Positions 9,696 through 60,089 of a stretch of DNA of 64,000 nucleotides are shown here, one piece after another. Position 1 is the first letter of the stretch; each line of letters begins with the position of its first letter. A program made the translations under genes and the position numbers. A model generated the notes under the pieces. That model was not told the origin of the DNA. It did no database searches and saw only the letters and a list, made by a program, of their open reading frames with translations. Source of the DNA: a virus (lineage: Duplodnaviria; Heunggongvirae; Uroviricota; Caudoviricetes); IMG/VR virus record IMGVR_UViG_3300017613_003292, positions 33,021 through 97,020 of that record. One strand, 5' to 3'.

Positions 9696-9696
9696 A

Positions 9697-39988: not shown

Positions 39989-39990
39989 AT

Positions 39991-40677: not shown

Positions 40678-40760
40678 TTTTTTCTATTTTGCTTCCTACC
40701 CGTGGCAGGGGAAAATTTAATGAACTACAAGGGAAAAGAAAGAATAAGAAAGGGATATAA
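40678..40760 (+). pseudogene. Remnant duplicate of a GT N-terminus (IFSILLPTRGRGKFNELQGKRKNKKGI*) in the intergenic spacer
   Basis: ttttctattttgcttcctacccgtggcagggg at 40684-40715 is ~85% identical to 39997-40028 (ttttctattctgcttcccacccgtggtcgtcc). Confidence 0.35.
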
Positions 40761-41750: not shown

Positions 41751-41759
41751 GGGGTAGTA

Positions 41760-42584
41760 ATGCTTTATGTATATGGAGGGGCTGGGTTTGTAGGAAGAAA
41801 TCTTATAAAAAGAACATCGTATGACGCCGTACCAATTCCAAGAAATCAATATTCTGTGCAATCAAGTAAAACTGATGATATTTTATATCTAATCAGTACT
41901 GTCCACAACTATCACATCCATTCGGATATCCATAAGGACGTCGATGTAAATTTAACTACTTTTCTGACCGTGTTAGATAACGCCAGAAAGAATGGATGTC
42001 GTACCTTCAATTTTATATCTTCCTGGTTTGTGTATGGAGATTGTGAATTACCAGCAACAGAAACAACATATTGCAACCCTAAGGGTTTCTATTCAATAAC
42101 AAAACGTACCGCAGAACAATTATTGATTTCATATTGCGAGACATTCAATATAAATTATAGAATTCTTAGATTGTGTAATGTGTATGGGGAGGATGATGAT
42201 AAGGTTTCGATCCAACGAAATGCGATGCAGTTCCTTATAAAAGAATTGATTGCCGGTAACGATATCAAATTGTATGACGGTGGATCTACAATAAGGGATT
42301 ATATGCATGTTGATGATGTTGCTGATGCTATAGATATTTGTCTTAAGTATGCTCCAATTAATACTGTTGTAAATATCGGAAGTGGTAGGAAGATATTCTT
42401 TAAGGATATCATGAGACAGGCAAAAGAAATTTCTGGTTCAAAGGCTAATATTTTATCTATGGAGCCTACCGATTTCCATAAGGTTAGCGGTGTAAAAGAT
42501 TTTTACATGGATACAACTGTATTGAAAAGTTTGGGGTTTAAACAAAAGATTTCAATCCATGATGGTATTACGAGGCTGCTTTGA
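41760..42584 (+). CDS. NAD-dependent epimerase/dehydratase (extended SDR), sugar-nucleotide modifying
   Basis: GGAGFVGRNL (GxxGxxG) and YSITKRTAE (YxxxK). Confidence 0.7.
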   Translation: MLYVYGGAGFVGRNLIKRTSYDAVPIPRNQYSVQSSKTDDILYLISTVHNYHIHSDIHKDVDVNLTTFLTVLDNARKNGCRTFNFISSWFVYGDCELPATETTYCNPKGFYSITKRTAEQLLISYCETFNINYRILRLCNVYGEDDDKVSIQRNAMQFLIKELIAGNDIKLYDGGSTIRDYMHVDDVADAIDICLKYAPINTVVNIGSGRKIFFKDIMRQAKEISGSKANILSMEPTDFHKVSGVKDFYMDTTVLKSLGFKQKISIHDGITRLL

Positions 42585-43639
42585 AAAAAATAAATCAATA
42601 CACTGAATTCAATTTTGACAATCCGTTCGGAAGCCAGGCAAAGATGTTGTACCATATTGATCGGTTGTTTAGTTATACGAAATGTGGTGATACCTGGCCC
42701 GTCTTTCTTGAGATAAACTTGACTGATACATGCAACCTTTCATGTTCATGGTGCATCTCAGAAAATCGGTTGGACAGCACGATTGATACAAGCAAGTTGA
42801 AAGAATTTTTAAACAGCTTCAAAGAACACGGTGGGAAAGCGGTGACTTTTAGCGGTGGTGGTGAGCCTACACTTCATCCGGATTTCCACGAAATAGTTAC
42901 GCACGCAAGGACTGCCGGACTCGAACTTGGCTTGATGACAAATGGGTTCTTTCCAAAGAAATATATAGATTTGATTGGGAATAATTTTAAGTGGATCAGG
43001 TTTTCTCTTGATACGGTTGATCATGACAAATATAAAAAATGGAAAAATGTAAATGCTGTGTTGACAGTTTTGAACAACATAAGGCTGTTGAGCGAAAAGA
43101 ATGTCAAGGTTGGCGTGAATTGTAATGTTAATGCAGAGATGACCGTTAAGGATGTTTTGGATTTAATAGATACGGTCTCACCTCAATGTAATTATATTCA
43201 ATTCAGACCCGTCCTGCCCAGATATTTCAAAAGAGAAAAATCTGATTTAAATTCATCTGTATGGACTTATCTTCAAAAGAATTTTGTAACCAATCCAAAG
43301 ATAAATTTTAGCTTTGACAAACTGAAGGATGTTATGACTGAGAATTGGTTTCCATTTAATAGTTGTGAAGGTCATTTCTTTTCTCCAGCTTTGAATTCTG
43401 ATGGCAACCTTATGGTTTGCATGTATCATTTTGGAGACGAAAGATTTGCTTTTGGGAATATATATGAATCTGATTTTGGGAATATTTGGAATAGCAGTAG
43501 AAGAAAAAATGTTATACGTTTTATTAGACAGCTGGATTATCGTAACAATTGTCAAGTCTGTTGTAAACTGTGTGAACTGAATAAATTTATCTTTTTCTTA
43601 ACAAACCCAAACAATGATATGGATATTAACTTTTTATAA
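42581..43639 (+). CDS. Radical SAM enzyme (with C-terminal Cys-rich SPASM/twitch-like region)
   Basis: CNLSCSWC (CxxxCxxC) near the N-terminus, a glycine-rich SAM region FSGGGEPTLHP, and additional C-terminal Cys clusters. Confidence 0.7.
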   Translation: MKKINQYTEFNFDNPFGSQAKMLYHIDRLFSYTKCGDTWPVFLEINLTDTCNLSCSWCISENRLDSTIDTSKLKEFLNSFKEHGGKAVTFSGGGEPTLHPDFHEIVTHARTAGLELGLMTNGFFPKKYIDLIGNNFKWIRFSLDTVDHDKYKKWKNVNAVLTVLNNIRLLSEKNVKVGVNCNVNAEMTVKDVLDLIDTVSPQCNYIQFRPVLPRYFKREKSDLNSSVWTYLQKNFVTNPKINFSFDKLKDVMTENWFPFNSCEGHFFSPALNSDGNLMVCMYHFGDERFAFGNIYESDFGNIWNSSRRKNVIRFIRQLDYRNNCQVCCKLCELNKFIFFLTNPNNDMDINFL

Positions 43640-43699
43640 GTCTAATCGATTTCCAAAAAAACGTATGGAAGATATTCAGAAATTAAGGAGTGCTATGGT

Positions 43700-44548
43700 A
43701 TGAAAATTTATGCGGTATATCGTATCCTATACGGAGAAGACTTTGTTGAAGAATCCATATTATCAATTGCAGATTATGTTGATAAAATTTTCGTATTTTA
43801 TGATACAAGGCCTTGGGGCCAGATAATGGAAGTAGAATACATGGGAGATAAAATCGTAATCCCCGAAAAGATAGACAATGTCATGGATAAAATAAAAGGA
43901 ATGAATCATTCAAAAATTGAAATATTGTTTGCACGGTATGAAACGAACAAGAATATCGTTACAAATTATGTCAATGACATAATTCTTCCGAATTATGATG
44001 CACCAGATGTAATATGGTTTATTGAACCGGATCATGTTATCCATGAAAAAACCGGACCAAAAATATTAGATAGCATTAAACAAAATGAAATAAACCAAAA
44101 ATATAATTGCATGTTTACAAAACAACATGAAATTTGGCGAGGTTTCCGACATGAAGTCTATCCTGAAAGAAAGAGACGCCTTTCTACTGTTATATGGCAT
44201 TTAAATTCACTACGAGACAAAAAAATGCCAGAGACCGGTAGACATGCTGATGCCAAAAATAAAAAAATAGATACTACCTTTCTCGAACACAAAATTCATA
44301 ACTATGGCTTTGCCGTTTCTGAAAAAACAATGTATTGGAAACATATCATTACAATTGGTTTTTCGAGATACATAGGTGATGCAATGCCGAATATTTCATG
44401 GTATAATGAAAAATGGCTTAAGTGGGACTATAAAACAAATAATGACTGCCTTGAAATTTCTAAAGGAAGAGAATGCAATATAAAAACAACGGTTCCATAT
44501 GATATAAACGGCCATCCCTCACTAATGAAAAACTTTACTAGGGAATAA
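43700..44548 (+). CDS. hypothetical protein, possible GT-A-like glycosyltransferase (282 aa)
   Basis: Context plus an IWFIEPDH acidic motif; weak. Confidence 0.35.
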   Translation: MKIYAVYRILYGEDFVEESILSIADYVDKIFVFYDTRPWGQIMEVEYMGDKIVIPEKIDNVMDKIKGMNHSKIEILFARYETNKNIVTNYVNDIILPNYDAPDVIWFIEPDHVIHEKTGPKILDSIKQNEINQKYNCMFTKQHEIWRGFRHEVYPERKRRLSTVIWHLNSLRDKKMPETGRHADAKNKKIDTTFLEHKIHNYGFAVSEKTMYWKHIITIGFSRYIGDAMPNISWYNEKWLKWDYKTNNDCLEISKGRECNIKTTVPYDINGHPSLMKNFTRE

Positions 44549-45094
44549 ATGAACAAAAAAGAACATGTGGAACAACTTATCGGATTTGAATATAAAGGAA
44601 TACCAGTATCACAACAGAAGGCGTCCATCCCTCTCATAGTAAATATTGTCACTGAATTTAATATTAAAAATATCATTGAACTCGGAACTTTGTATGGCGG
44701 ATCGTCTGTAATATTAAAAGACAGTTGCCCAGATATAAATTTATATACTTTTGATAAAAAAGATTTAAGACATAACATCGTAAAGAAAAGAAAAGATATT
44801 ATATTTTACAAAGAAGACATCCTTAAAAAAGATCAACCAAGCCCAAATGTAATAAAATTGCTTGAATATCCAGAACCAGCAATTTTGTTTTGTGACAATG
44901 GAAATAAAAAAGAAGAAGTCAGAACATATACAAAATATTTAAAACATAGAGATATAATTGGCATGCATGATTGGGGAACAGAGATATTCTTGGAAGACAT
45001 CTCTGATATAATTGATAGGTATCAATTACATCCAATACATAAAAATATTTTCAAAACTAATGGCTTTCTTGTTAGATTTTTTCAAAAAAAATAA
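44549..45094 (+). CDS. putative SAM-dependent methyltransferase (181 aa)
   Basis: IIELGTLYGGSS (motif I-like) ... MHDWG; ATGA overlap with the upstream gene. Confidence 0.4.
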   Translation: MNKKEHVEQLIGFEYKGIPVSQQKASIPLIVNIVTEFNIKNIIELGTLYGGSSVILKDSCPDINLYTFDKKDLRHNIVKKRKDIIFYKEDILKKDQPSPNVIKLLEYPEPAILFCDNGNKKEEVRTYTKYLKHRDIIGMHDWGTEIFLEDISDIIDRYQLHPIHKNIFKTNGFLVRFFQKK

Positions 45095-45139
45095 ACCACA
45101 AGAAGTATTGAGCTTCAATAAAAAAAGGGAGACTTTATT

Positions 45140-46474
45140 ATGAATATCGGTTTTGTTGGACTTGGAAAGCTGGGGCTGCCGTGTGCATTGGTGATTGCAT
45201 CAAAAGGCCATAAAGTGTGTGGCTATGATGTCGATGAAAAAATTGCTGATTATTTAAAAGAAAAACAAATTCCATACCAGGAGGAGGGAGTTCCAGAACT
45301 GTTGAAAACAGAAACAGTTGACTTCGTATCTATGGAAGAGGTTGTCGGACGATCTGATATCATTTTCGTTGCTGTGCAGACGCCGCATGAGGAATTATAT
45401 GAAGGCACTACCCGCCTGCCAGATGAACGGGTTGATTTTGACTATCGTTTTCTTGTAAACGCCATGACGCAAATCAGTAATATTGCAGCTGAAAAAGAAA
45501 AACCAATTACAGTCGTTATTATATCGACTGTTCTTCCTGGAACAATTTCACGCACCATTTACCCTGTTATAAGCGACTATATCGATCTCATGTACAATCC
45601 CTTCTTTATTGCCATGGGAACCACGGTCAGAGATTTTTTTAACCCGGATATTATTTTGATTGGCGATCATTATGTACGAGCAGATGACGGCATTGAAAAA
45701 AATATTCTGATTGATTTTTACAAAACAGTTATAAACGTACCCGTACTTTATAAAGTTATGTCTATTGAGAGCGCTGAGCTGACAAAAGTAGCATACAATA
45801 CCATTATCACTTCAAAAATTAATATTGCCAATACGATTATGGAAATCTGTCACAAGATTTCATACGCCGATGTTGACGAGGTGACTGATGCGCTCAAAGA
45901 CTGCCATCTCAGGATTACCAGCCCGAGATATATGGATGGTGGAATGGGTGATGGCGGTGGCTGCCATCCAAGAGACAACATTGCCATGTCCTGGCTTTCC
46001 CGAAAATTGAATTTGAGCCATGACGTTTATGAAGATCTGATGAAAACCCGGGAAGCCCAGACTGAATGGTTGGCAGATCTTATCATAGAAGAATGTAAAA
46101 AAGTCGACTTGCCACCTGTTTTACTTGGATATGCCTTCAAGCCTGAAACTAATATCACAACCGGGTCCCCGGCGTTGTTACTTGAAAAAATCATGGAAGA
46201 AAAAGAATTTCCATTTTATGCCAAACATGACCCCTATTATGAAAATTTTGAACTTATTAAACGGTTTGTTTCAAGGACCCCTGCTGTATATTTTATTGGC
46301 ACACAACATTTGCTGTTCAGACAGTTATCATTTAAAGAAAAATCCGTACTAATTGACCCCTTCAGATACATGCCATATGTGGTACCGCAGATAAAAAACA
46401 TCAAATATGTCTATATTGGGAGTCATGAAGCCGGGACTGGAATAAAAGATGAAAATTATACATCCTATCTCTAA
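45140..46474 (+). CDS. UDP-glucose/GDP-mannose 6-dehydrogenase family (nucleotide-sugar dehydrogenase)
   Basis: N-terminus MNIGFVGLGKLGLPCALVIASKGHKVCGYD is the classic NAD-binding start, with catalytic-Cys region GGGCHPRD. Confidence 0.75.
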   Translation: MNIGFVGLGKLGLPCALVIASKGHKVCGYDVDEKIADYLKEKQIPYQEEGVPELLKTETVDFVSMEEVVGRSDIIFVAVQTPHEELYEGTTRLPDERVDFDYRFLVNAMTQISNIAAEKEKPITVVIISTVLPGTISRTIYPVISDYIDLMYNPFFIAMGTTVRDFFNPDIILIGDHYVRADDGIEKNILIDFYKTVINVPVLYKVMSIESAELTKVAYNTIITSKINIANTIMEICHKISYADVDEVTDALKDCHLRITSPRYMDGGMGDGGGCHPRDNIAMSWLSRKLNLSHDVYEDLMKTREAQTEWLADLIIEECKKVDLPPVLLGYAFKPETNITTGSPALLLEKIMEEKEFPFYAKHDPYYENFELIKRFVSRTPAVYFIGTQHLLFRQLSFKEKSVLIDPFRYMPYVVPQIKNIKYVYIGSHEAGTGIKDENYTSYL

Positions 46475-53642: not shown

Positions 53643-53716
53643 TGGGGTGAGGGCGGGATTTGAACCCGATCCCCGGGGCCACAACCCAGTGCTTTAACCA
53701 ATTAAGCTACCCCCAC
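53643..53716 (-). tRNA. tRNA-His (anticodon GTG), CCA encoded, no encoded G-1
   Basis: Folded by hand: acceptor GTGGGGG/CCCTCAC, D-arm GCTT-AATTGGTTA-AAGC, anticodon stem CTGGG/CCCGG with loop TTGTGGC, T-arm with TTCAAAT, discriminator C, then CCA. Confidence 0.7.
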
Positions 53717-53804: not shown

Positions 53805-55259
53805 TTATTTTGTCGTAGCCATATTCAAACCACGGTCATAATTCAACCGTCTGGCTGCATCAAGTGTCATGAGTTTCATGAAATTTTTGACCTCAGTGTC
53901 GTTACCAGTCGAGACGCCACTGTTGCCTCCGAATACATTTGTCGGAACTTTTCTTTTGGAATAGGCATCTGCCCACACCTTTTGGATCTCAATTTCTGCC
54001 ACCAGTTTTTGCTGTAGTGCATTGTCAGCTTGGATGACCTTACGTTTTTTATATGCTTCAGCATCGGCCGCAACTTTTACAGCAGCAGCATCGATTTTGG
54101 CTTTATCCAGAAGAATTTTTGATGTTTGTTTCTGAACTTCGGCCTGTTCTTTTTGTCGGTTGGCAACGATCAGTGCCTGCATTTTATTGGTCTCTTCTGA
54201 GGTTGTAATGTCAATCTGTTCCACCTTTTTCTGAGCCTGACGTTCTGCCACCTGACGTTCACCCTTTGCAACAGCCAGATACTTTTGTTCTTCTTCCTGA
54301 ATTCTCTGTTCTCTGGCAATGGCACGATCTGCGGAAGCCTGCTGTTTCAGCTTCATGCGCTCAATAAATTTTTCATTTGGTTTCATGGCTGTTACGCGGG
54401 CTTCATGAACACTGATGCCGAAAGATGTAAATTTCTGTGTTTTTCTGAGCGGCTGCCCGTCTGAACCATATAATTTATTTACGACAAAAACCACCTTGCC
54501 TTGGTCGTCGAATTCATCCTGATGTTTGGGATCAGATGCGTTGGCTTCTGATTTCTGGGCGGTGACTGACCTTTCAACCACCTCTTCCCGTTTTACCATA
54601 TAGATCCCTTTCTGCATTTGATTTTCAAATTCATTGATGAACTCAGTCCTGCCGCCTGAAAAATAATTCTCAGCAGTAATCAAAGATCCTGTGGCCTGTA
54701 ATGTTTCCTGGAATGCTGGAATCAAAGCAACTCGTAATAGATTCTCGGGCGTTCTATACTCACGGGCCATCTTCAGAAATGTTTCATCATCGACAGGCAA
54801 TCTGAACCGTGCCATAGCCATGGCGTCTGCATCCACCTGATCAAGAAATGTAACATTTTGCGGTGGCAGGCTGGCGCTGGCAACGTTTTCTGCACCTTCA
54901 GCATTCACGCCGTCAGCCGTGTCGGTATCTGCCAATACCGTCATGGCTTTTTTCCACTGATTTTTCTTTCCAAAGAGATATAGACTGTATCCAATGGATT
55001 TGACGACCCGTTCCTGGCCGGTAATAGTCCTAACGTGATAGGTATACCCGGGTTCGGCGTAAAAGAAGACACTGTTGAATGTGCCCATAAAGAAGCATAT
55101 GGCCGCGAAAGTAATAATACCGGTTCTTACAAAGCCCGGCATTGGAAATGTGTAATTCGAATTGCCGTCTTTGCGTGCCGTATTTTCAGATTTGATTTTG
55201 ATAACGGTCAATATGACGACCGCAATGATCAGAAGAATTCCAAGTAGAATCCAAAGCAT
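53805..55259 (-). CDS. SPFH/Band-7 (flotillin/prohibitin-like) membrane protein
   Basis: N-terminal TM (WILLGILLIIAVVILTVI), a second hydrophobic segment, a central SPFH-like region, and a long C-terminal coiled-coil (ERQAQKKVEQIDITTSEE...). Confidence 0.6.
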   Translation of the reverse strand: MLWILLGILLIIAVVILTVIKIKSENTARKDGNSNYTFPMPGFVRTGIITFAAICFFMGTFNSVFFYAEPGYTYHVRTITGQERVVKSIGYSLYLFGKKNQWKKAMTVLADTDTADGVNAEGAENVASASLPPQNVTFLDQVDADAMAMARFRLPVDDETFLKMAREYRTPENLLRVALIPAFQETLQATGSLITAENYFSGGRTEFINEFENQMQKGIYMVKREEVVERSVTAQKSEANASDPKHQDEFDDQGKVVFVVNKLYGSDGQPLRKTQKFTSFGISVHEARVTAMKPNEKFIERMKLKQQASADRAIAREQRIQEEEQKYLAVAKGERQVAERQAQKKVEQIDITTSEETNKMQALIVANRQKEQAEVQKQTSKILLDKAKIDAAAVKVAADAEAYKKRKVIQADNALQQKLVAEIEIQKVWADAYSKRKVPTNVFGGNSGVSTGNDTEVKNFMKLMTLDAARRLNYDRGLNMATTK

Positions 55260-55384
55260 GATGTTTCCCCCATTTTTTTAAGTTTTCAATGTAATTTTCA
55301 TTATGTGTAATTCAAAAGCTCCAACTTTATATACAACTGTTTTATTTTTTTTATCACCCCCATCCTTATTGAATTTTGTTACTT

Positions 55385-55531
55385 TTATTTTCTTTTTTTA
55401 ACAGGCTTTTTGATACCTTTTTTCCCTCCAGTCATTGCTCCTTGTCCTGGCCCTCTACGTCTACCCTTACCACCTCCACGACCGTCTCTTAGACCTTGGC
55501 CTTTCGGCCCCGTTCTATCTTTATTTGGCAT
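55385..55531 (-). CDS. small Gly/Arg/Lys-rich basic protein (48 aa; below ORF-track cutoff)
   Basis: Hand-translated as MPNKDRTGPKGQGLRDGRGGGKGRRRGPGQGAMTGGKKGIKKPVKKRK. It is preceded by a copy of the conserved junction motif with its SD. Confidence 0.35.
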   Translation of the reverse strand: MPNKDRTGPKGQGLRDGRGGGKGRRRGPGQGAMTGGKKGIKKPVKKRK

Positions 55532-55537
55532 TTTTTT

Positions 55538-55560
55538 CCCTTCCGTGCGGTGTGTTAATC
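55538..55560 (-). promoter_or_regulatory. Conserved junction motif copy a (minus: GATTAACACACCGCACGGAAGGG..ATG)
   Basis: Contains the stop TAA of the upstream micro-ORF, a CCGCACGG core, and the SD for the 55531 start. Confidence 0.5.
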
Positions 55561-55625
55561 TGATATTTTCACAATTTTACCCTTCAACCCCCATATCCTC
55601 ATAGCGTCAACACTAAATAATCTTT

Positions 55626-55715
55626 TCATAGGCACATAGCTTCAACCGCTGTATTGTCAGCGTTGCCCTGAGCCATCATTTCGCTCCAAAATTTACAACC
55701 TTCACATTTTTTCAT
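55626..55715 (-). CDS. micro-ORF, 29 aa CxxC peptide (MKKCEGCKFWSEMMAQGNADNTAVEAMCL)
   Basis: Preceded by a degenerate motif copy (CCACACACAAGGGGATGAG). Its stop overlaps the ATG of the 24-aa micro-ORF inside repeat unit a. Confidence 0.25.
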   Translation of the reverse strand: MKKCEGCKFWSEMMAQGNADNTAVEAMCL

Positions 55716-55732
55716 CTCATCCCCTTGTGTGT

Positions 55733-55800
55733 GGGGATAGCCCCTGCCTTGCAAGTAAGAAATCGCCTGGAATGCGTGTCTACAAGGACTATCCCCATAA
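55733..55800 (-). ncRNA. Large imperfect hairpin (outer stem GGGGATAG/CTATCCCC, inner CCTTG/CAAGG), possible structured RNA element
   Basis: ggggatagcccctgccttgcaag...ctacaaggactatcccc on the plus strand; intergenic within the small-gene operon. Confidence 0.2.
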
Positions 55801-55898
55801 ATTATTCAGCGTTATTACCGGATGCGCTGCCCCCGGTTACTGCATTAGTTCTTTACGGCATTCAGCCAACTCTGGCGAAACCTTCAAATGGCATCACT

Positions 55899-55918
55899 CC
55901 CCTTCCGTGCGGTTAATC
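55899..55918 (-). promoter_or_regulatory. Conserved junction motif copy b (GATTAACCGCACGGAAGGGGAGTGATG)
   Basis: Contains the TAA stop of 55913..56137; the following ATG opens only a 10-codon ORF. Confidence 0.45.
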
Positions 55919-56137
55919 TTCAATTTCGTCATAATATTCTTGCCAATCCGGGTCTGTTTTTATAAAAGCCCGTTTAACCGCTGGATGGCGAAAATAAAGA
56001 CTGTCTCCCTGGCAATCCCAATCCAAGTTCTCAAGTATATTTATTACACGTTCTAAAATATCTTCGGTTTTTAGGTTTTCATTAAAAAGTGCTTCGCAAA
56101 CTGTATCGAAAATTTCTGTTCCTGAACACCATCCCAT
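55913..56137 (-). CDS. hypothetical acidic protein (74 aa)
   Basis: ORF; start preceded by motif copy c with a GGGGGAG SD. Confidence 0.45.
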   Translation of the reverse strand: MGWCSGTEIFDTVCEALFNENLKTEDILERVINILENLDWDCQGDSLYFRHPAVKRAFIKTDPDWQEYYDEIED

Positions 56138-56142
56138 AATCT

Positions 56143-56170
56143 CCCCCTTCCGTGCGGTGTGGATTAATCT
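56143..56170 (-). promoter_or_regulatory. Conserved junction motif copy c (GATTAATCCACACCGCACGGAAGGGGGAGATTATG)
   Basis: Best match to the consensus; immediately upstream of the ATG at 56137. Confidence 0.5.
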
Positions 56171-56221
56171 GATATTTTCACAATTTTACCCCTCAACCCC
56201 CATATCCTCATAGCGCCAACA

Positions 56222-56470
56222 CTAAATAATCTTTTCATCGCTGGTCTCCTCTCTTAATTGTCTTATAGAAACATCACGATGCGGAGTAAGCAAAGAGTGG
56301 TGCTGTTTATGCCACAAGACATTTCCATGAAATATACGAGGCAAATCAACACGAGGAAACTCAGCGAGACACCCTTCAAATCCGTTTGGTCGTGCGATGT
56401 TCATGTTAAGCACCACTGGCATGTTGCCAGCTAATTTTATAATTAACCAATATCTTATTTTTTCAGTCAT
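56222..56470 (-). CDS. hypothetical protein (83 aa; start at MTEKIRYW with SD CCCAGGAGG)
   Basis: Start taken at the internal Met of ORF-track entry 56222..56542. The upstream part of that entry belongs to a separate 54-aa Zn-ribbon ORF in another frame. Confidence 0.4.
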   Translation of the reverse strand: MTEKIRYWLIIKLAGNMPVVLNMNIARPNGFEGCLAEFPRVDLPRIFHGNVLWHKQHHSLLTPHRDVSIRQLREETSDEKII

Positions 56471-56627
56471 CGCTGGCCTCCTGGGTGGGTTTAATTGGTT
56501 CAAAATTCCAACCACATTGATCGCATTCACCGTGATAGCCATCTAAAAATTCTTTTTCGCCAATTAACAATTTTGCCCGCACAAGGGTTTTACAAGTGTG
56601 ACACTCAATATTTTTAAATTTATCCAT
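56463..56627 (-). CDS. small Zn-ribbon protein (54 aa; MDKFKNIECHTCKTL...GECDQCGW...)
   Basis: Hand-translated. Its stop TGA overlaps the start region of 56222..56470, and it is preceded by motif copy d. Confidence 0.35.
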   Translation of the reverse strand: MDKFKNIECHTCKTLVRAKLLIGEKEFLDGYHGECDQCGWNFEPIKPTQEASDD

Positions 56628-56633
56628 TCACTC

Positions 56634-56656
56634 CCCTTCCGTGCGGTGGTTAATCT
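56634..56656 (-). promoter_or_regulatory. Conserved junction motif copy d (GATTAACCACCGCACGGAAGGGGAGTGAATG)
   Basis: Contains the TAA stop of 56650..56994 and the SD for the ATG at 56627. Confidence 0.45.
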
Positions 56657-56994
56657 GTTATAACAAACCATATAAGTGTTAATGGGTCATTATCACCTAT
56701 CCCTTTATAAATTTTAATTAATTCCCTCTGCAAACCTGTTACTGTCCGACATTCTGGTTCATGTTCTAATTTTAGCATAGATGGTATAATTGATTTAAGT
56801 GTATAACACTCAACCTTTGAAATAATTGCATAGTATAAATGAGTTAATGGTTCTCCTTGGGAATCAACATCCCATATTTCAACACTATCACCGTGACGTA
56901 ATTTTGCCCACTTCAAGCCTTTGCGAACAGTTAAATTAATACCATCATTAAATCTAACTTTGCCGTTTATTCCTTGAAATAATAACTGTTTCAT
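56650..56994 (-). CDS. hypothetical protein (114 aa; possibly ASCH/PUA-like)
   Basis: ORF; start preceded by motif copy e. Confidence 0.45.
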   Translation of the reverse strand: MKQLLFQGINGKVRFNDGINLTVRKGLKWAKLRHGDSVEIWDVDSQGEPLTHLYYAIISKVECYTLKSIIPSMLKLEHEPECRTVTGLQRELIKIYKGIGDNDPLTLIWFVITD

Positions 56995-57001
56995 TCACCC
57001 C

Positions 57002-57024
57002 CCCTTCCGTGCGGTGTGGATTAA
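57002..57024 (-). promoter_or_regulatory. Conserved junction motif copy e
   Basis: ttaatccacaccgcacggaagggggggtgaATG (minus strand); contains the TAA stop of 57021..57335. Confidence 0.45.
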
Positions 57025-57335
57025 AAGCTGTGTCTCCCTTCACCCCTGCATTTCCAACATTGGCTTGTGCCTGAGTGACAGGGGCCATGTGTTGTAATAT
57101 TCCCTGTCCCATTACATATTTCGCATATCACTTTTTCTTTTTCTGCTGTTATTTTAGACTTCAATCTTTTATTTTCTTCGATAAGTGGATTCGGAATGGC
57201 ATCATACCCATGAGCCATATCATATTGTTCGTGTGCAATTTCCACATCACGGGCAATGCTAAATATTTGCTCTTGTGTCGCTGAGATTCCGACTTCATCA
57301 AGAGCTTGGCTTACACATTCTTCCCAATATTCCAT
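57021..57335 (-). CDS. hypothetical protein with C-terminal Zn-binding motif (CEICNGTG...CWKCRGEG)
   Basis: ORF; motif copy f upstream. Confidence 0.5.
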   Translation of the reverse strand: MEYWEECVSQALDEVGISATQEQIFSIARDVEIAHEQYDMAHGYDAIPNPLIEENKRLKSKITAEKEKVICEICNGTGNITTHGPCHSGTSQCWKCRGEGRHSF

Positions 57336-57340
57336 TTCAT

Positions 57341-57360
57341 CCCCCTTCCGTGCGGTTAAT
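57341..57360 (-). promoter_or_regulatory. Conserved junction motif copy f
   Basis: GATTAACCGCACGGAAGGGGGATGAAATG (minus strand); contains the TAA stop of 57356..57664. Confidence 0.45.
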
Positions 57361-57571
57361 CTAAAAACACCACACTCTCCACCAATGCGCCATTGTGTTT
57401 AACTTTAATTTTTCCATCTTTCCAAATAGCAAACCACGGAACGGCTACCATTTTTCCACATTCCATAATAACTGTAATTTTATCACAATTATCATGATTT
57501 ATAGATTGGTTAACATTATTGGGCCACCACAATTCTTTTACCTCTTGGCCTTCATAAAATCTGTTTTCCAT
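57356..57571 (-). CDS. hypothetical protein (71 aa from MENRFYEGQE...)
   Basis: Motif copy g and its SD lie directly upstream of this internal Met. The longer ORF-track form (to 57664) would overlap the 41-aa membrane peptide gene. Confidence 0.4.
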   Translation of the reverse strand: MENRFYEGQEVKELWWPNNVNQSINHDNCDKITVIMECGKMVAVPWFAIWKDGKIKVKHNGALVESVVFLD

Positions 57572-57576
57572 TTCAT

Positions 57577-57602
57577 CCCCCTTCCATGCGGTGTGGTTAA
57601 TC
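57577..57602 (-). promoter_or_regulatory. Conserved junction motif copy g (variant CCGCATGG)
   Basis: GATTAACCACACCGCATGGAAGGGGGATGAAATG (minus strand). Confidence 0.4.
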
Positions 57603-57722
57603 AAATATCCATCCCAAAACAGTGCGAATAATTCGTAACTCTCCGTGTGTCCACGCTTGGGCAATCATATCAAGCAGACCAATTCCGCCCAAAACAAAAA
57701 ATATGTTCCGTAAATATCTCAT
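57597..57722 (-). CDS. 41-aa hydrophobic peptide (MRYLRNIFFVLGGIGLLDMIAQAWTHGELRIIRTVLGWIFD)
   Basis: Hand-translated. Its start is preceded by motif copy h and its stop TAA lies inside motif copy g, so it fits the operon grammar exactly. Confidence 0.3.
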   Translation of the reverse strand: MRYLRNIFFVLGGIGLLDMIAQAWTHGELRIIRTVLGWIFD

Positions 57723-57724
57723 AT

Positions 57725-57750
57725 CCCCCCTTCCGTGCGGTGTGGATTAA
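57725..57750 (-). promoter_or_regulatory. Conserved junction motif copy h
   Basis: GAATTAATCCACACCGCACGGAAGGGGGGATATGAG (minus strand); contains the TAA stop of 57747..58361. Confidence 0.45.
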
Positions 57751-58361
57751 TTCTTTCTGTGTGCTTTCCAAACCATTCGTGTCAATCGCCTTTCTTGTTT
57801 CTCTCCGGCAGTATCCAAGGCAGCAGCCCTGGCAGCATTCCTGGCAGCATCCCAGGCAGCATCCCTGACAACATCCCAGGCAGCAATCCTGGCAGCATCC
57901 CAGGCAGCAGCCCTGACAGCAACCCTGGCAGCATCCCCGGCAACATCCCAGGCAGCATCCCTGACAGCAACCCCGGCAGCATCCCTTAATGACTCGTCTT
58001 GTGTCTTTAAATATTTTACAACCACATCAGGCGCATCCCACAGGTGAATTACATCTAAAGCACGCATACATGCGAATTTACGCAGCAATTTTTTACCATT
58101 AATCCACCATAATACCTTTCTGCACTCTGCCACGGTTTTGTCATCTTCATGAATCATTTCACCGGCAAGTTCAACCCGACAAATAATAGGGCCGGGAGCA
58201 TATTTTAAAGCATCGGTGATTTTTTTAGAAGCGTGTAGGCCGCAATGACACATTTTAAGGTCGCCTTTATGCACAAGCCATTGTCCTTTGCGTGCAAGGC
58301 GACCATCGTCATAACCAAGCCTTCTGGTCTCTCTCATAAAATGCCATGCTTTCATATTCAT
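57747..58361 (-). CDS. Protein with conserved N-terminal domain and C-terminal AAWDAAR-type pentapeptide tandem repeats (204 aa)
   Basis: C-terminus RDAAGVAVRDAAWDVAGDAARVAVRAAAWDAARIAAWDVVRDAAWDAARNAARAAALD, encoded by 15-bp DNA tandem repeats. Confidence 0.55.
   Translation of the reverse strand: MNMKAWHFMRETRRLGYDDGRLARKGQWLVHKGDLKMCHCGLHASKKITDALKYAPGPIICRVELAGEMIHEDDKTVAECRKVLWWINGKKLLRKFACMRALDVIHLWDAPDVVVKYLKTQDESLRDAAGVAVRDAAWDVAGDAARVAVRAAAWDAARIAAWDVVRDAAWDAARNAARAAALDTAGEKQERRLTRMVWKAHRKN
57800..57975. repeat. 15-bp tandem repeat (gcagcatcccaggca-type, ~11 copies)
   Basis: Seen directly; all three frames on each strand are open across it (listed overlapping ORFs PGSIPGS... and LPGMLPG...). 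Confidence 0.85.
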
Positions 58362-58410
58362 ATCCCTCCTGGCATACCGTATATTTTATCCCCCCTCTTT
58401 CATTTAATTA

Positions 58411-58485
58411 TGGTCGGAGAGGCAGGATTTGAACCTGCGGCCTTGTGGCCCCAAACCACACCGTCTTCCGCTGACTTACTCTCCG
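58411..58485 (-). tRNA. tRNA-Pro (anticodon TGG)
   Basis: Hand fold: acceptor CGGAGAG/CTCTCCG, anticodon stem TGTGG/CCACA with loop TTTGGGG, T-arm GCAGG-TTCAAAT-CCTGC, discriminator A, CCA encoded. Confidence 0.7.
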
Positions 58486-58677
58486 TTAAAGATCAAACAA
58501 ACCAAGTTGATCTACAATGCTGTAGTAAATACTCCCTCCCATAAAAGCGTAAAGAAATTCTGGTGCAAAAAATGGATGTGTATAGAACAACGGCATTGTC
58601 TTAGCTGCGACCATTATTATCATACATATAACGAGTGCTGTTATTATTTTAAAAATGATCACGCATGACCGTTTCAT
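58486..58677 (-). CDS. small membrane protein (63 aa, two hydrophobic segments)
   Basis: ORF starts right after tRNA-Pro; IITALVICMIIMVAA TM segment. Confidence 0.3.
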   Translation of the reverse strand: MKRSCVIIFKIITALVICMIIMVAAKTMPLFYTHPFFAPEFLYAFMGGSIYYSIVDQLGLFDL

Positions 58678-58997: not shown

Positions 58998-59417
58998 TTA
59001 AATTATTTTTTCAAGGGAATAAAGCTCAGACCACAGATTGCCACAGACACGACAAGTTACTTCCCATTGAATTTTGGGAATAGCTTTTCTATTTTCGTCC
59101 CATTGTCCTTCAATATATTCAATATTTTTTGCTGAAAAATTTTCAATTCCGATTGCGCCGCAATGCGGACATTCATTTTTATTCCGCGCATGCATTTTTT
59201 GATCGATGAATCGATTTTTATTCCATTCATGCAGCCGAGGAAATTCAATACCCGCATCTCGTGCTATTCCGTCTAAATATTCAAGCGTTTCGATGTATCC
59301 ATAATTCCCTTCTGCCTGACAGGATTCGCAGATATAACCATTCATTTGACCACTGTCATTTATTATTAATCGACCACATCGTTTGCAGGCTGGCATAATT
59401 CCTCTGATAGATGGCAC
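58998..59417 (-). CDS. Zn-ribbon protein (139 aa; true start probably a few codons in, as the first codons overlap tRNA-Gln)
   Basis: CKRCG...CESC and CPHCG...CRVCG motifs. Confidence 0.45.
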   Translation of the reverse strand: MPSIRGIMPACKRCGRLIINDSGQMNGYICESCQAEGNYGYIETLEYLDGIARDAGIEFPRLHEWNKNRFIDQKMHARNKNECPHCGAIGIENFSAKNIEYIEGQWDENRKAIPKIQWEVTCRVCGNLWSELYSLEKII

Positions 59418-59487
59418 GCCGGGCAGGGTTTGAACCTGCGGCCTTCGGAATCAAAGTCCGATGTTCTCCCAGCTGAACTACCGGCGT
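59412..59487 (-). tRNA. tRNA-Gln (anticodon TTG)
   Basis: Hand fold: acceptor ACGCCGG/CCGGCGT, D-arm GTTC-AGCTGGGA-GAAC, anticodon stem TCGGA/TCCGA with loop CTTTGAT, T-arm GCAGG-TTCAAAC-CCTGC, discriminator G, CCA. Confidence 0.7.
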
Positions 59488-60014: not shown

Positions 60015-60089
60015 TGGTAGCGGAGGCGGGAATCGAACCCGCGTAAATAAGGATATGAACCTTATGAGTCACCATTACTCTACTCCGCA
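60015..60089 (-). tRNA. tRNA with CAT anticodon (Met, or Ile2 if lysidine-modified); U1:U72 mismatch
   Basis: Hand fold: D-arm GAGT-AATGGTG-ACTC, anticodon stem TAAGG/CCTTA with loop TTCATAT, T-arm GCGGG-TTCGATT-CCCGC, 3' ...CTCCGCT-A-CCA. The 5' end begins T-GCGGAG, so the first pair is unpaired. Confidence 0.6.

What the first reader, a model, noticed from the sequence alone, without database searches (positions are those of the whole stretch)
55385..58361. Nine copies of a conserved ~25-nt stop-spacer-SD junction motif organising an operon of small genes
Between 55.4 and 58.4 kb every gene junction on the minus strand carries (G)ATTAA(TC)CACACCGCACGG-AAGGGGG(AG)-N2-4-ATG. The TAA inside GATTAA is the stop of the upstream gene; a 13-nt invariant spacer with the CCGCACGG core (near-palindromic with its complement CCGTGCGG) follows; then a G-rich SD and the next start. 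There are eight close copies (55538, 55899, 56143, 56634, 57002, 57341, 57577, 57725) and one degenerate copy (~55721). Selection on more than an RBS is implied, because the spacer is conserved while the SD and start context vary. Possibilities include a binding site for a translational repressor/activator, a target for a phage endoribonuclease (in the manner of T4 RegB cutting GGAG in early intergenic regions), a promoter fused to its RBS as in T7-like middle/late units, or recombinogenic promoter-stem-loop cassettes that shuffle small accessory genes. Using the motif as a grammar let me recover four genes missing or mis-delimited in the ORF track: a 48-aa basic protein, a 54-aa Zn-ribbon protein, a 41-aa membrane peptide, and a 29-aa CxxC peptide.
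Basis: seen in the sequence. Interest (0 to 1): 0.65.

Follow-up and report, generated by a model that had tools for sequence, protein, structure and literature searches.

The report
Repeated start-site motif joining small phage genes
A block of small accessory genes in an uncultured phage uses one near-identical 20-30-base joint (stop codon, CCGCACGG, very strong ribosome-binding site, start codon) eight times; this resembles the still-unexplained "start-associated sequences" of mycobacteriophages, and the same core recurs in two other uncultured phage lineages.

Summary
Eight copies of CCGCAYGGAAGGG lie on the minus strand between 55538 and 57740 and nowhere else in the 64 kb. None of 100 shuffles reaches that count. 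Each copy sits between a TAA stop and the next ATG. The core is 98% identical between copies; the flanks are 34-46% identical.

The motif keeps register with the start codon (5-7 nt) but not with the stop (0-6 nt). Its 3' half, GGAAGGGGG, is the strongest Shine-Dalgarno in the window. CCGCAY lies outside any Shine-Dalgarno pairing.

I found no stable RNA fold, Rfam family, sigma-70 promoter, terminator or antisense partner. The closest available relatives, and homologues of one block gene, lack the motif.

Two other uncultured phage lineages (GC 65% and 53%) carry CCGCACGGAAG at several gene junctions. Two permuted control 14-mers gave no such arrays.

Best reading: an mRNA-level, start-associated translation cassette for co-transcribed small early or accessory genes. 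It is analogous to cluster K mycobacteriophage SAS but is not a member of that family. The trans-acting partner is unknown; a CsrA-type protein is a testable candidate. Identical joints also mark recombination breakpoints. A phage-polymerase promoter and an RNase site are not excluded.

The parts
57720..57749 (-). Junction M1: TAA stop of g1, TCCACA, core CCGCACGGAAGGG (57728-57740), GGGAT, ATG of g2
57569..57599 (-). Junction M2: TAA of g2, CCACA, core CCGCATGGAAGGG (57579-57591), GGATGAA, ATG of g3. This is the only copy with a substitution in the core.
57333..57358 (-). Junction M3: TAA of g3 directly abutting the core (57343-57355), GGATGAA, ATG of g4
56992..57023 (-). Junction M4: TAA of g4, TCCACA, core (57002-57014), GGGGTGA, ATG of g5
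56625..56652 (-). Junction M5: TAA of g5, CCA, core (56634-56646), GAGTGA, ATG of g6
56135..56166 (-). Junction M6: TAA of g8, TCCACA, core (56145-56157), GGAGATT, ATG of g9
55892..55915 (-). Junction M7: TAA of g9 abutting the core (55900-55912), GAGTG, ATG of a 10-codon stub ORF (55862-55894)
55529..55557 (-). Junction M8: TAA of g11, CACA, core (55538-55550), AAAAAA, ATG of g12. The G-run is shortened here and the predicted Shine-Dalgarno is the weakest of the eight (-6.8 / -10.0 kcal/mol).
55713..55736 (-). Degenerate copy CCCCACACACAAGGGGATGAG + ATG of g10. It has the CA-rich leader and G-rich Shine-Dalgarno but no CCGCACGG.
57747..58361 (-). g1, 204 aa, DUF7666 domain plus 12-nt tandem repeats. 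First gene of the block, downstream of tRNA-Pro.
57597..57722 (-). g2, 41-aa hydrophobic peptide
57356..57571 (-). g3, 71 aa. Homologues elsewhere (49-72% identity) have ordinary junctions. There is a weak homologue in lineage (c).
57021..57335 (-). g4, 104 aa, CxxC zinc-finger-like C-terminus, phrog_27975
56650..56994 (-). g5, 114 aa, no homologue other than itself in 5.8 billion proteins
56463..56627 (-). g6, 54-aa four-cysteine zinc-ribbon protein
56222..56470 (-). g7, 82 aa. Overlaps g6 (ATGACTGA). Its junction carries a different repeat, AGGAGRCCAGCGATGA.
   Evidence: D9
56164..56238 (-). g8, 24-aa ORF MKRLFSVGAMRIWGLRGKIVKISD, copy 1 of an 80-nt duplication
   Evidence: D3
55913..56137 (-). 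g9, 74 aa, phrog_11183
55626..55715 (-). g10, 29-aa CxxC peptide
55555..55629 (-). g11, copy 2 of the 24-aa ORF. Homology to copy 1 starts at the ATG and ends inside motif M8.
   Evidence: D3
55385..55531 (-). g12, 48-aa glycine/arginine/lysine-rich basic protein, weak DUF5320 N-terminal match. Last gene of the block.

Best explanation
The motif is a start-associated translation-initiation cassette that acts on the mRNA. The 13 small minus-strand ORFs between tRNA-Pro (58411-58485) and the SPFH gene (55259-53805) are most likely read from one polycistronic transcript. That is an inference from the absence of internal promoter or terminator signals.

Eight junctions carry the same module:
- the stop codon of the upstream gene;
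- 0-6 nt of C/A-rich filler;
- the invariant CCGCAY;
- a 9-nt extended Shine-Dalgarno, GGAAGGGGG;
- 5-7 nt between the 13-nt core and the ATG.

Shown:
- the module keeps register with the start codon, not with the stop;
- its 3' half gives these genes the strongest predicted Shine-Dalgarno pairing in the window;
- the stop lies 18-26 nt upstream of the next ATG.

Inferred:
- A terminating ribosome, or a fresh 30S subunit, is captured efficiently, so a set of unrelated small early or accessory genes is translated strongly, uniformly and in a coupled way.
- The invariant non-Shine-Dalgarno half (CCGCAY) is a recognition element for a trans-acting factor, host- or phage-encoded, that lets the whole set be switched together. 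[quoted passage not shown]

As a side effect, or a second function, the identical 20-25-nt joints act as short homologies where gene cassettes are duplicated or exchanged.
For: - The core is 98% identical across 8 junctions, while the coding flanks are 34-43% identical and the 6 nt after the core 46%. The flanking genes are unrelated. The copies are therefore not simply relics of gene duplication.
- The core-to-ATG distance is 5-7 nt, whereas the stop-to-core distance is 0-6 nt.
- All copies point the same way and lie only in the block.
- The predicted Shine-Dalgarno/anti-Shine-Dalgarno duplex is -12.1 kcal/mol on average (E. coli-type 16S tail) or -15.3 (UUUCU tail), against -7.8 +/- 3.2 for 49 other genes in the window. 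Mann-Whitney p = 5e-4 and 1e-5.
- There is no excess of sigma-70 promoter-like or terminator-like sites inside the block.
- Homologues of g3 on six other contigs (L554, L556, L676-L679) have ordinary junctions, so the motif belongs to this genome's block and not to the gene.
- CCGCACGGAAG recurs at several gene junctions in two other uncultured phage lineages. Lineage (b), L064/L105, GC 65%, has six copies, embedded in the 3' ends of upstream ORFs in different reading frames. Lineage (c), L025/L035/L036/L069/L098/L211, GC 53%, has 2-3 copies within 0.2-0.8 kb on L035 and L098, 1-17 nt after a TAA stop where the stop was read (L098), and a separate canonical Shine-Dalgarno downstream.
- In both lineages the copies sit among small non-structural genes.
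- Two permuted control 14-mers gave no junction arrays.
- An 80-nt duplication ends inside the motif (D3).
Against: - There are no transcript or ribosome data, so the single-operon assumption rests on absence of signals only.
- No close relative carrying the family-(a) motif was found, so purifying selection cannot be shown by comparing orthologous junctions.
- The nearest relative, L120, has a similar small-gene block without the motif.
- Three junctions in the block work without the motif, and M7 precedes only a 10-codon stub.
- No trans-acting factor is identified. No protein is shared by all three lineages in the DNA held.
Convergence by chance cannot be rigorously excluded with two controls.
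Confidence: 0.45

Rival explanations
1. The motif is an operator for a CsrA/RsmA-family protein, or a sponge for one. CACGGAAG fits the CsrA/RsmE site CANGGANG, with the hexaloop-type ACGGAA closed by C-G and flanked by CC...GG. Host CsrA, or a phage mimic, would bind over each ribosome-binding site and tie translation of the whole block to host physiology. Alternatively the eight-site transcript would titrate CsrA, as the CsrB/RsmZ RNAs do.
For: - The sequence fits the A(N)GGAX loop and the ACGGAU hexaloop of the hcnA ribosome-binding site described in PMC4005645.
- RNAfold places GCACGGAA in a loop closed by CC/GG in 4 of 8 copies.
- The only substitution in the core is at the N position, C to T in M2.
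- A conserved host protein would explain why lineages with GC 42-65% share the same core.
- In de-duplicated IMG/VR hits, 14-mers keeping CAC before GGAAGGGG lie at start sites in 22 of 88 and 21 of 87 cases, against 6 of 77 for CGC-GGAAGGGG.
- The closest SPFH homologues with a source name are mostly gammaproteobacterial. That this class usually has csrA is my own knowledge.
Against: - The match covers only 8 nt, and GGA is part of most Shine-Dalgarno sequences.
- The predicted hairpins are no more stable than shuffles, with z-scores from -0.98 to +0.71.
- It does not explain why CCG and the G-run are invariant rather than covarying.
- The hosts of all three lineages are unknown.
- No CsrA homologue was detected in the window or in the related loci, using query sequences recalled from memory.
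- Some (b) and (c) copies lose the C or the GGA.
Confidence: 0.12
2. The motif is mainly a recombination linker or cassette boundary. The identical 20-25-nt joints would exist because they let small accessory genes be swapped, duplicated or deleted by short-homology recombination between co-infecting phages. Any effect on expression would be secondary.
For: - The 80-nt duplication (56159-56238 and 55550-55629, 95% identical) starts at the ATG of a 24-aa ORF and ends inside the motif at GGAAGGG (D3).
- M7 is followed by a 10-codon stub and a 170-nt gene-free gap, as expected after a deletion.
- The block is made of ORFans and patchily distributed genes.
- The region before the core varies by indels of CCRCA-like units.
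Against: - A linker needs no fixed register with the start codon and need not be a maximal Shine-Dalgarno.
- The left end of the duplication is not at a motif.
- No related genome with the same joints was found that could act as an exchange partner.
- Thirteen invariant nt is short for homologous recombination. That is my own knowledge.
Confidence: 0.12
3. The motif is a promoter for a phage-encoded RNA polymerase or sigma-like factor, fused to the ribosome-binding site. Transcription would start at the GG of GGAAGGGG, giving each small gene its own short-leader mRNA.
For: - Its length (about 20 nt) and strict orientation fit.
- G-rich initially transcribed sequences resemble those of T7, T3 and SP6 promoters, and ATTAATCCACAC loosely resembles T3 ATTAACCCTCAC. 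Both are my own knowledge.
- In lineage (c) the distance from the core to the start codon varies from 8 to 24 nt, as a leader would.
- Lineage (b) encodes a small protein like sigma-70 region 4.
- About 33 kb of the source genome is unseen (one search reports a 97-kb contig).
Against: - Eight promoters in 2.3 kb is an implausible density.
- The part upstream of CCGCAC has 0-6 nt indels, so there is no fixed -17 to -5 register.
- There is no AT-rich melting segment.
- No RNA polymerase or sigma factor was found among the 42 window ORFs screened.
- In lineage (b) the motif lies within coding sequence at overlapping stop/start junctions typical of coupled operons.
Confidence: 0.08
4. The motif is a processing site for a sequence-specific endoribonuclease, in the manner of T4 RegB. 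Cleavage would cut the polycistronic mRNA at each joint, either inactivating early messages or releasing monocistronic units.
For: - The position is intergenic and overlaps the Shine-Dalgarno.
- The genes are small and probably early.
- The orientation is strict.
Against: - The RegB target GGAG is present in only 3 of 8 copies.
- No nuclease gene was recognised in the block.
- There is no conserved hairpin of the kind used by Cas6- or RNase III-type enzymes.
Confidence: 0.06
5. The CCGCAC half, with its filler, is a translation enhancer that pairs with 16S rRNA next to the anti-Shine-Dalgarno sequence. It is complementary to 16S nucleotides 1522-1531 (UGCGGUUGGA), the 3' strand of helix 45.
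For: - For the commonest long form and for the short form, the best duplex anywhere in E. coli 16S rRNA is at 1516-1534 (-15.7 and -13.9 kcal/mol).
- Only 7 of 2000 random window 12-mers, and 41 of 2000 shuffles, pair as well with that segment.
- The short form UUAACCGCA pairs over 9 consecutive positions, which would explain the conserved GATTAA.
- The target is nearly universal. That is my own knowledge.
Against: - The two complementary blocks are in the wrong order for a continuous duplex with the Shine-Dalgarno helix.
- The target strand is base-paired in helix 45 of the mature 30S subunit. That is my own knowledge.
- For copies M2, M5 and M8 and for lineages (b) and (c), this is not the best site in 16S.
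- The hypothesis is post hoc.
Confidence: 0.05
6. The motif has no function of its own. A strong ribosome-binding site with a few hitch-hiking upstream bases would have spread recently through the block by gene conversion or serial insertion. The resemblance to lineages (b) and (c) would be coincidence.
For: - The array is known from one genome only.
- The closest relatives lack it.
- Part of the motif is explained as an optimal Shine-Dalgarno.
Against: - The flanks within 6 nt on either side have diverged by substitutions and indels, while 103 of 104 core positions are identical.
- The same 11-14-nt core forms arrays in two further lineages, but two permuted controls do not.
- In lineage (b) the motif is maintained inside coding sequence in different reading frames.
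Confidence: 0.08

Closest known systems
Start-associated sequences (SAS) of cluster K mycobacteriophages (Pope et al. 2011, PMC3203893; 2025 survey PMC12699233)
   Same: - A short asymmetric repeat in one orientation, a few nt upstream of start codons.
- It contains the Shine-Dalgarno core plus conserved positions that cannot pair with 16S rRNA.
- It is confined to non-structural genes of unrelated families.
- The stop codon of the upstream gene often lies in or next to it.
- The function has not been tested experimentally.
   Different: - The sequence is different (GGGATAGGAGCCC against CCGCAYGGAAGGGGG).
- SAS has 11-19 copies spread over half a genome, and these are conserved across a cluster of related phages. 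Here there are 8 copies in 2.3 kb of one genome, absent from the nearest relatives.
- There is no ESAS-like 17-bp inverted repeat here.
- The host is not an actinobacterium as far as can be judged.
26-bp SAS-like repeat of Citrobacter phage Mordin, FelixO1-like (PMC4611695)
   Same: Eight copies upstream of the starts of hypothetical genes in one arm of the genome of a phage of a Gram-negative host.
   Different: The sequence is different (CCAACAATCCTAAACTGGAGAATCTA). No stop-codon linkage or cross-lineage recurrence is reported.
Stoperators of cluster A mycobacteriophages (L5), as cited in PMC3203893
   Same: A 13-bp asymmetric site, oriented with transcription, in short intergenic spaces that often overlap stop codons.
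   Different: Stoperators are DNA sites for the phage repressor and are spread genome-wide. Here the motif keeps register with the start codon, includes the Shine-Dalgarno and is confined to one block. No repressor has been identified.
T4-type PeSL cassettes (promoter-early stem-loop; Arbiol et al. 2010, own knowledge)
   Same: Repeated regulatory joints flank small accessory ORFs in a plastic region, and there are signs of recombination at the joints.
   Different: PeSL consists of a sigma-70 early promoter plus a stem-loop. Neither was detected here.
T4 RegA translational repressor and RegB endoribonuclease targets (own knowledge)
   Same: One phage factor acts on the initiation regions of many early mRNAs.
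   Different: RegA sites are AU-rich and poorly conserved. RegB cuts GGAG, which is present in only 3 of 8 copies here. No homologue of either was recognised.
CsrA/RsmE binding sites (PMC4005645)
   Same: ACGGAA flanked by C...G matches A(N)GGAX in a loop, and it overlaps the Shine-Dalgarno. Multiple sites on one RNA recall the CsrB/RsmZ sponge RNAs.
   Different: There is no evidence of binding and the hairpin is weak. The invariance of CCG and the G-run goes beyond what CsrA recognition requires.

Membership tests
SAS (cluster K mycobacteriophages) | 13-bp consensus GGGATAGGAGCCC with up to 2 mismatches | tested here: not met
   The core here is CCGCAYGGAAGGG. The SAS consensus is taken from PMC3203893.
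SAS (cluster K mycobacteriophages) | The repeat ends a few nt (typically 3-7) upstream of the start codon, which is mostly ATG | tested here: met
   The core ends 5-7 nt before an ATG in 8 of 8 copies.
SAS (cluster K mycobacteriophages) | Single orientation and restriction to non-structural genes of unrelated families | tested here: met
   All copies are on the minus strand within 55.5-57.8 kb, outside the structural modules, and next to unrelated small ORFs.
SAS (cluster K mycobacteriophages) | Contains the Shine-Dalgarno core plus conserved positions with no pairing partner at the 16S 3' end | tested here: met
   GGAAGGGGG pairs with the anti-Shine-Dalgarno sequence. CCGCAY lies 5' of the paired stretch.
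SAS (cluster K mycobacteriophages) | Conserved at the same gene families across related genomes | tested here: not met
   The nearest relative L120 and six contigs carrying g3 homologues lack the motif.
Stoperator (cluster A) | Sites dispersed through the genome in both arms, bound by the phage repressor | tested here: not met
   The motif is confined to 2.3 kb of the 64-kb window. No repressor was identified.
T4 PeSL cassette | Sigma-70 early promoter followed by a stem-loop at each cassette boundary | tested here: not met
   Promoter-like sites number 20 against 12.7 +/- 3.7 in shuffles, and only one weak 9-of-12 match touches a joint (M8). Terminator-like sites number 3 against 4.0. Fold z-scores run from -0.98 to +0.71.
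T7-type single-subunit RNA polymerase promoter | Fixed-length conserved sequence of about 23 bp spanning -17 to +6, with an AT-rich -4 to -1 | tested here: not met
   There are 0-6 nt indels between TTAA and the core, and the bases before the putative +1 are GCAC.
T7-type single-subunit RNA polymerase promoter | The phage encodes the cognate RNA polymerase | tested here: inconclusive
   None was found among the 42 window ORFs screened. About 33 kb of the 97-kb source contig is not in the window.
CsrA/RsmE binding site | A(N)GGA(X) presented in a hairpin loop, usually overlapping the Shine-Dalgarno | tested here: inconclusive
   The sequence ACGGAA with a C-G closing pair is present in 7 of 8 copies and AUGGAA in the eighth. 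The predicted CC/GG stem is weak and no better than shuffles.
CsrA/RsmE binding site | The host or phage encodes a CsrA-family protein that binds the RNA | not testable with these tools
   The host is unknown. No CsrA-like ORF was found in the window or in the related loci by BLASTP with queries recalled from memory.
T4 RegB target | GGAG tetranucleotide in the Shine-Dalgarno of early genes | tested here: not met
   GGAG occurs in M5, M6 and M7 only.
Known RNA families (Rfam 15) | Covariance-model match | tested here: not met
   Apart from tRNA-Pro, the only hit is a sub-threshold nuoG match of 22.7 bits against a gathering score of 33.

The most novel reading that the evidence does not exclude
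CCGCACGGAAG(GGG) is a portable mRNA operator that phage lineages of very different base composition (42%, 53% and 65% GC) have each installed in front of batteries of small early or anti-host genes. They would do so because a conserved host component recognises it. The candidate is a CsrA-family protein; less likely, it is the 16S rRNA segment next to the anti-Shine-Dalgarno sequence. The phages could then either couple accessory-gene translation to host physiology or soak up the host regulator.
Probability: 0.12. Interest if true: 0.8.

Novelty: new variant of a known kind. Interest (0 to 1): 0.5.

Why it matters
Start-associated repeats were described in 2011 and are still unexplained. This case separates the parts cleanly: a maximal Shine-Dalgarno, plus an invariant hexamer that cannot pair with the anti-Shine-Dalgarno sequence.

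It also shows the same core in three phage lineages with very different base composition. That points to a conserved recognition partner rather than lineage-specific drift.

The element is about 25 nt long and sits in front of small genes, so simple reporter and binding assays can test it without culturing the phage. If a host factor is involved, it would be a general handle by which phages control, or exploit, translation of their accessory and anti-defence genes. The motif also works as a practical grammar for calling very small phage genes.

Tried and rejected
1. **Stable RNA structure or riboswitch.** Ten junction RNAs folded no better than shuffles. Rfam gave no family.
2. **Sigma-70 promoters or intrinsic terminators at the joints.** No enrichment.
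3. **A trans antisense RNA encoded in the window.** No complementary site outside the block, even allowing G-U pairs and 2 mismatches.
4. **Close relatives for comparative analysis.** There was no near DNA match in 50,697 phage records. The family-(a) patterns are absent from IMG/VR. The metagenome scan gave 74 single, chance-like hits. The source contig could not be fetched.
5. **Relatives found through proteins.** The SPFH neighbour led to L120, which has a small-gene block but no motif. g5 is an ORFan. g3 homologues have ordinary junctions. g4 has only distant homologues, in Caulobacter and Vibrio phages.
6. **Host or prophage identification in bacterial genomes.** 120 single hits across many phyla, consistent with chance in GC-rich DNA.
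7. **The canonical-Shine-Dalgarno variant CCGCACGGAAGGAG.** No new junction arrays.
8. **A protein shared by the three motif-bearing lineages, as a candidate trans factor.** Only two weak small-protein matches between the window and lineage (c), and none with lineage (b).
9. **Phage-encoded CsrA or a Mu Com-like protein.** Nothing convincing (queries recalled from memory).
10. **Literature search for the sequence itself.** The only hits are unrelated engineered 4.5S RNA constructs and a CRISPR primer paper.
11. **Isolates related to lineages (b) and (c).** None.

Full report
**Observation**

Reading 55200-58600 on the minus strand and pattern searches confirm eight copies of CCGCAYGGAAGGG. All are on the minus strand between 55538 and 57740. 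With up to two mismatches the window holds 9 matches, against 1.6 +/- 1.2 in dinucleotide-preserving shuffles, and none of 100 shuffles reaches 9. The ninth match (6397) is an unrelated 2-mismatch hit. The repeat finder recovers the same eight-member family (D2). A degenerate copy, CCCCACACACAAGGGGATGAG-ATG, lies at 55713-55736.

**Anatomy**

Pairwise identity is 98% in the 13-nt core: one C-to-T change in 104 positions. It is 88% in the last codon plus stop (GATTAA in 6 of 8). It falls to 46% in the 6 nt after the core, 43% in the 13 nt before the stop and 34% in the 13 nt after the ATG.

The core ends 5-7 nt before the ATG in all copies. The stop lies 0, 0, 3, 4, 5, 6, 6 or 6 nt before the core. 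The motif is therefore in register with the start, not with the stop. Intergenic distances are 18-26 nt.

Three overlapping junctions lack the motif. The filler length varies. GGAAGGG is as invariant as CCGCAY.

**Context**

The window is part of an uncultured tailed phage of about 42% GC. It encodes:
- a major head protein, portal, terminase and tail tube;
- a sugar-modification cluster;
- four tRNAs.

Its capsid protein is only 42% identical to those of Dinoroseobacter phage R5C and Pseudanabaena phage Pan1. There is no near DNA match among 50,697 phage records.

The motif block lies between tRNA-Pro (58411-58485) and an SPFH/Band-7 gene (55259-53805). It contains 13 minus-strand ORFs of 10-204 codons:
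- a DUF7666 protein;
- a 41-aa hydrophobic peptide;
- zinc-ribbon and CxxC proteins;
- a 48-aa basic glycine/arginine-rich protein;
- a 24-aa ORF present twice;
- ORFans.

In the closest SPFH relative (L120, 72% amino-acid identity) the equivalent position holds a different set of small genes. These include a Tad3 anti-Thoeris homologue. The region therefore looks like an accessory or anti-host gene locus.

**What the motif is not**

- Ten junction RNAs from this phage and from lineage (b) fold no better than shuffles, with z-scores from -0.98 to +0.71.
- Rfam gives only tRNA-Pro and a sub-threshold nuoG hit.
- Sigma-70 promoter-like and terminator-like sites are not enriched, and only one weak promoter-like match (9 of 12 positions) touches a joint, at M8.
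- No complementary sequence for an antisense RNA exists elsewhere in the window.
- No RNA polymerase, sigma factor, integrase or CsrA-like gene was recognised among the ORFs screened. About 33 kb of the 97-kb source contig is unseen.

**What part of it is**

G-rich Shine-Dalgarno sequences are used throughout the genome: GGGGG occurs 60 times on the minus strand and 5 times on the plus strand. The motif's GGAAGGGGG is the extreme case.

Predicted duplexes with the 16S 3' end average -12.1 kcal/mol for an E. coli-type tail and -15.3 for a UUUCU tail. The 49 other genes of the window average -7.8 +/- 3.2. The difference is significant (p = 5e-4 and 1e-5).

CCGCAY and the C/A-rich filler lie 5' of the pairing stretch and are not explained by this.

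**Comparative evidence**

Family-(a) versions of the motif are absent from IMG/VR. The metagenome collection gave only single, chance-like hits.

Homologues of g3 (49-72% identity) on six other contigs have ordinary junctions. The motif is therefore a property of this genome's block and not of the genes.

The 14-mer CCGCACGGAAGGGG does detect two other uncultured phage lineages with junction arrays.

- *Lineage (b)*: L064 and L105, GC 65%. It has six copies of GCCCGCCGCACGGAAGGGGAGAAGTGATG-like sequence. These lie inside the last codons of upstream ORFs in different reading frames and end in overlapping stop/start codons.
- *Lineage (c)*: L025, L035, L036, L069, L098 and L211, GC 53%, on contigs of 25-67 kb (five of them 62-67 kb). 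Two of these loci hold 2-3 copies within 0.2-0.8 kb. The copies have the form TAA-(1-17 nt)-CCGCACGGAAGGGG followed by a separate canonical AAGGAGAG Shine-Dalgarno. The core ends 8-24 nt before the start.

So CCGCACGGAAG can be separated from the working Shine-Dalgarno. In both lineages the copies sit among small non-structural genes near recombination and nucleotide-metabolism genes.

Lineage (c) shares two weak small-protein homologues with the window, one of them g3. Lineage (b) shares none.

Two control 14-mers with a permuted hexamer were also scanned: CACCGC-GGAAGGGG and GCCCAC-GGAAGGGG. They gave 101 and 120 loci. None contained a junction array; the only multi-copy cases were paralogous coding repeats. 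The canonical-Shine-Dalgarno variant CCGCACGGAAGGAG found no further arrays.

**Mechanism**

The best-supported reading is an mRNA-level, start-associated translation cassette.

- *Shown*: register with the start codon; maximal Shine-Dalgarno strength; a stop 18-26 nt upstream; strict orientation; restriction to one block of unrelated small genes; invariance of a hexamer that cannot pair with the anti-Shine-Dalgarno sequence.
- *Inferred*: the block is one transcript; terminating or fresh ribosomes are captured efficiently, so the genes are translated strongly and in a coupled way; CCGCAY is a recognition element for a trans-acting factor that switches the set together.

One concrete candidate is a CsrA/RsmA-family protein. 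CACGGAAG fits CANGGANG, and ACGGAA can sit in a loop closed by C-G, like the ACGGAU loop of the hcnA ribosome-binding site (PMC4005645). The only core substitution is at the N position. In de-duplicated IMG/VR hits, 14-mers that keep CAC before GGAAGGGG lie at start sites three times more often than the CGC control (22 of 88 and 21 of 87, against 6 of 77). This is a lead, not a demonstration. The match covers 8 nt, the hairpin is weak and the hosts are unknown.

A second lead concerns 16S rRNA. The long and short forms of the upstream half pair best, within all of E. coli 16S rRNA, with 1516-1534 next to the anti-Shine-Dalgarno sequence. However, the order of the two complementary blocks is wrong for a continuous duplex. 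That strand is also paired in helix 45, and the result does not hold for three of the copies or for lineages (b) and (c).

**Recombination**

An 80-nt duplication, 95% identical, carries a 24-aa ORF. It starts at that ORF's ATG and ends inside the motif (D3). M7 is followed by a 10-codon stub and a 170-nt gene-free gap containing a 15-16-bp hairpin. The filler varies by CCRCA-like indels. The joints are therefore breakpoints of rearrangements. Whether that is their purpose or a by-product is open.

**Comparison with known systems**

The closest known kind is the start-associated sequence (SAS) of cluster K mycobacteriophages (PMC3203893) and the SAS-like 26-bp repeat of phage Mordin (PMC4611695). 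SAS function was still untested in 2025 (PMC12699233).

The present motif shares position, orientation, gene class and the "Shine-Dalgarno plus unpairable conserved bases" architecture. It fails the sequence criterion and is not conserved among the nearest relatives, so it is an analogue and not a member.

Stoperators, PeSL cassettes, T7-type promoters and RegB targets each fail at least one defining feature that was tested here.

**Verdict**

This is a real, non-random and probably functional junction motif. It is a new variant of a known but unexplained kind of phage element.

Two findings raise its interest above a routine strong ribosome-binding site. The same core recurs in lineages of 42%, 53% and 65% GC. 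And the Shine-Dalgarno half separates cleanly from the non-Shine-Dalgarno half. No mechanism is proven.

Noticed in passing
window 57790-58010 (minus strand, inside g1 57747-58361): Twelve tandem 12-nt units encode (W/R)DAA-type tetrapeptide repeats in the C-terminal half of a DUF7666 protein (D1).
   Followed up: no
window 56159-56238 and 55550-55629: An 80-nt direct duplication, 95% identical, carries a 24-aa ORF (MKRLFSV[G/D]AMRIWGL[R/K]GKIVKISD). Each copy overlaps the end of a different upstream gene. The homology ends inside the junction motif (D3).
   Followed up: partly
window 56235-56250 and 56467-56482: A second repeated junction sequence, AGGAG(A/G)CCAGCGATGA, occurs at the two overlapping junctions g7/g8 and g6/g7 that lack the main motif (D9).
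   Followed up: no
window 55716-55900 (minus strand): A gene-free gap of about 170 nt follows a 10-codon stub ORF after M7. It contains a 15-16-bp hairpin (arms 55732-55746 and 55783-55797). The overall fold is not significant (z = -0.82) and there is no Rfam match.
   Followed up: partly
window 39317-46474 (+ strand); also 7388-11198 and 26713-29532 (- strand): A large sugar-modification gene set sits inside a phage: GT2 glycosyltransferases, an NAD epimerase/dehydratase, a radical SAM/SPASM enzyme, UDP-glucose dehydrogenase and methyltransferases. The + strand cluster has low GC of 34-38%.
   Followed up: no
window 11263-14010: A 915-aa ORF lies in a local GC peak (55%, positive GC skew). 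An 873-aa ORF runs on the opposite strand. Neither has a Pfam match.
   Followed up: no
window 53643-53716, 58411-58485, 59412-59487, 60015-60089: Four tRNA genes (His, Pro, Gln, Met) are interspersed among the small minus-strand genes around the motif block.
   Followed up: no
L120 2658-3227: The closest SPFH-gene relative carries a Tad3 (anti-Thoeris) homologue in the small-gene block that corresponds to the motif block.
   Followed up: no
L534 6740-6920 (bacterial genome contig): Two copies of GCGGGGGTC(T)CCCCCGCACGGAAGGGGAAGC, a hairpin followed by the motif core, lie 130 nt apart in a non-coding region upstream of an efflux-like gene. There is no Rfam match.
   Followed up: partly
L556 340-402: At the junction after the closest g3 homologue there is a 7-bp hairpin (TAGACCA...TGGTCTA) with the loop CAGACACGGCACA. 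A CA-rich leader and a G-rich Shine-Dalgarno follow. The CA-rich/G-rich start-region style seems typical of this phage group even without CCGCACGG.
   Followed up: no
L064 11705-11800: In lineage (b), one motif copy lies 96 nt inside an ORF that has its own good Shine-Dalgarno and ATG. It is followed in frame by GTG ATG. This could be an internal start or a fused leader.
   Followed up: no
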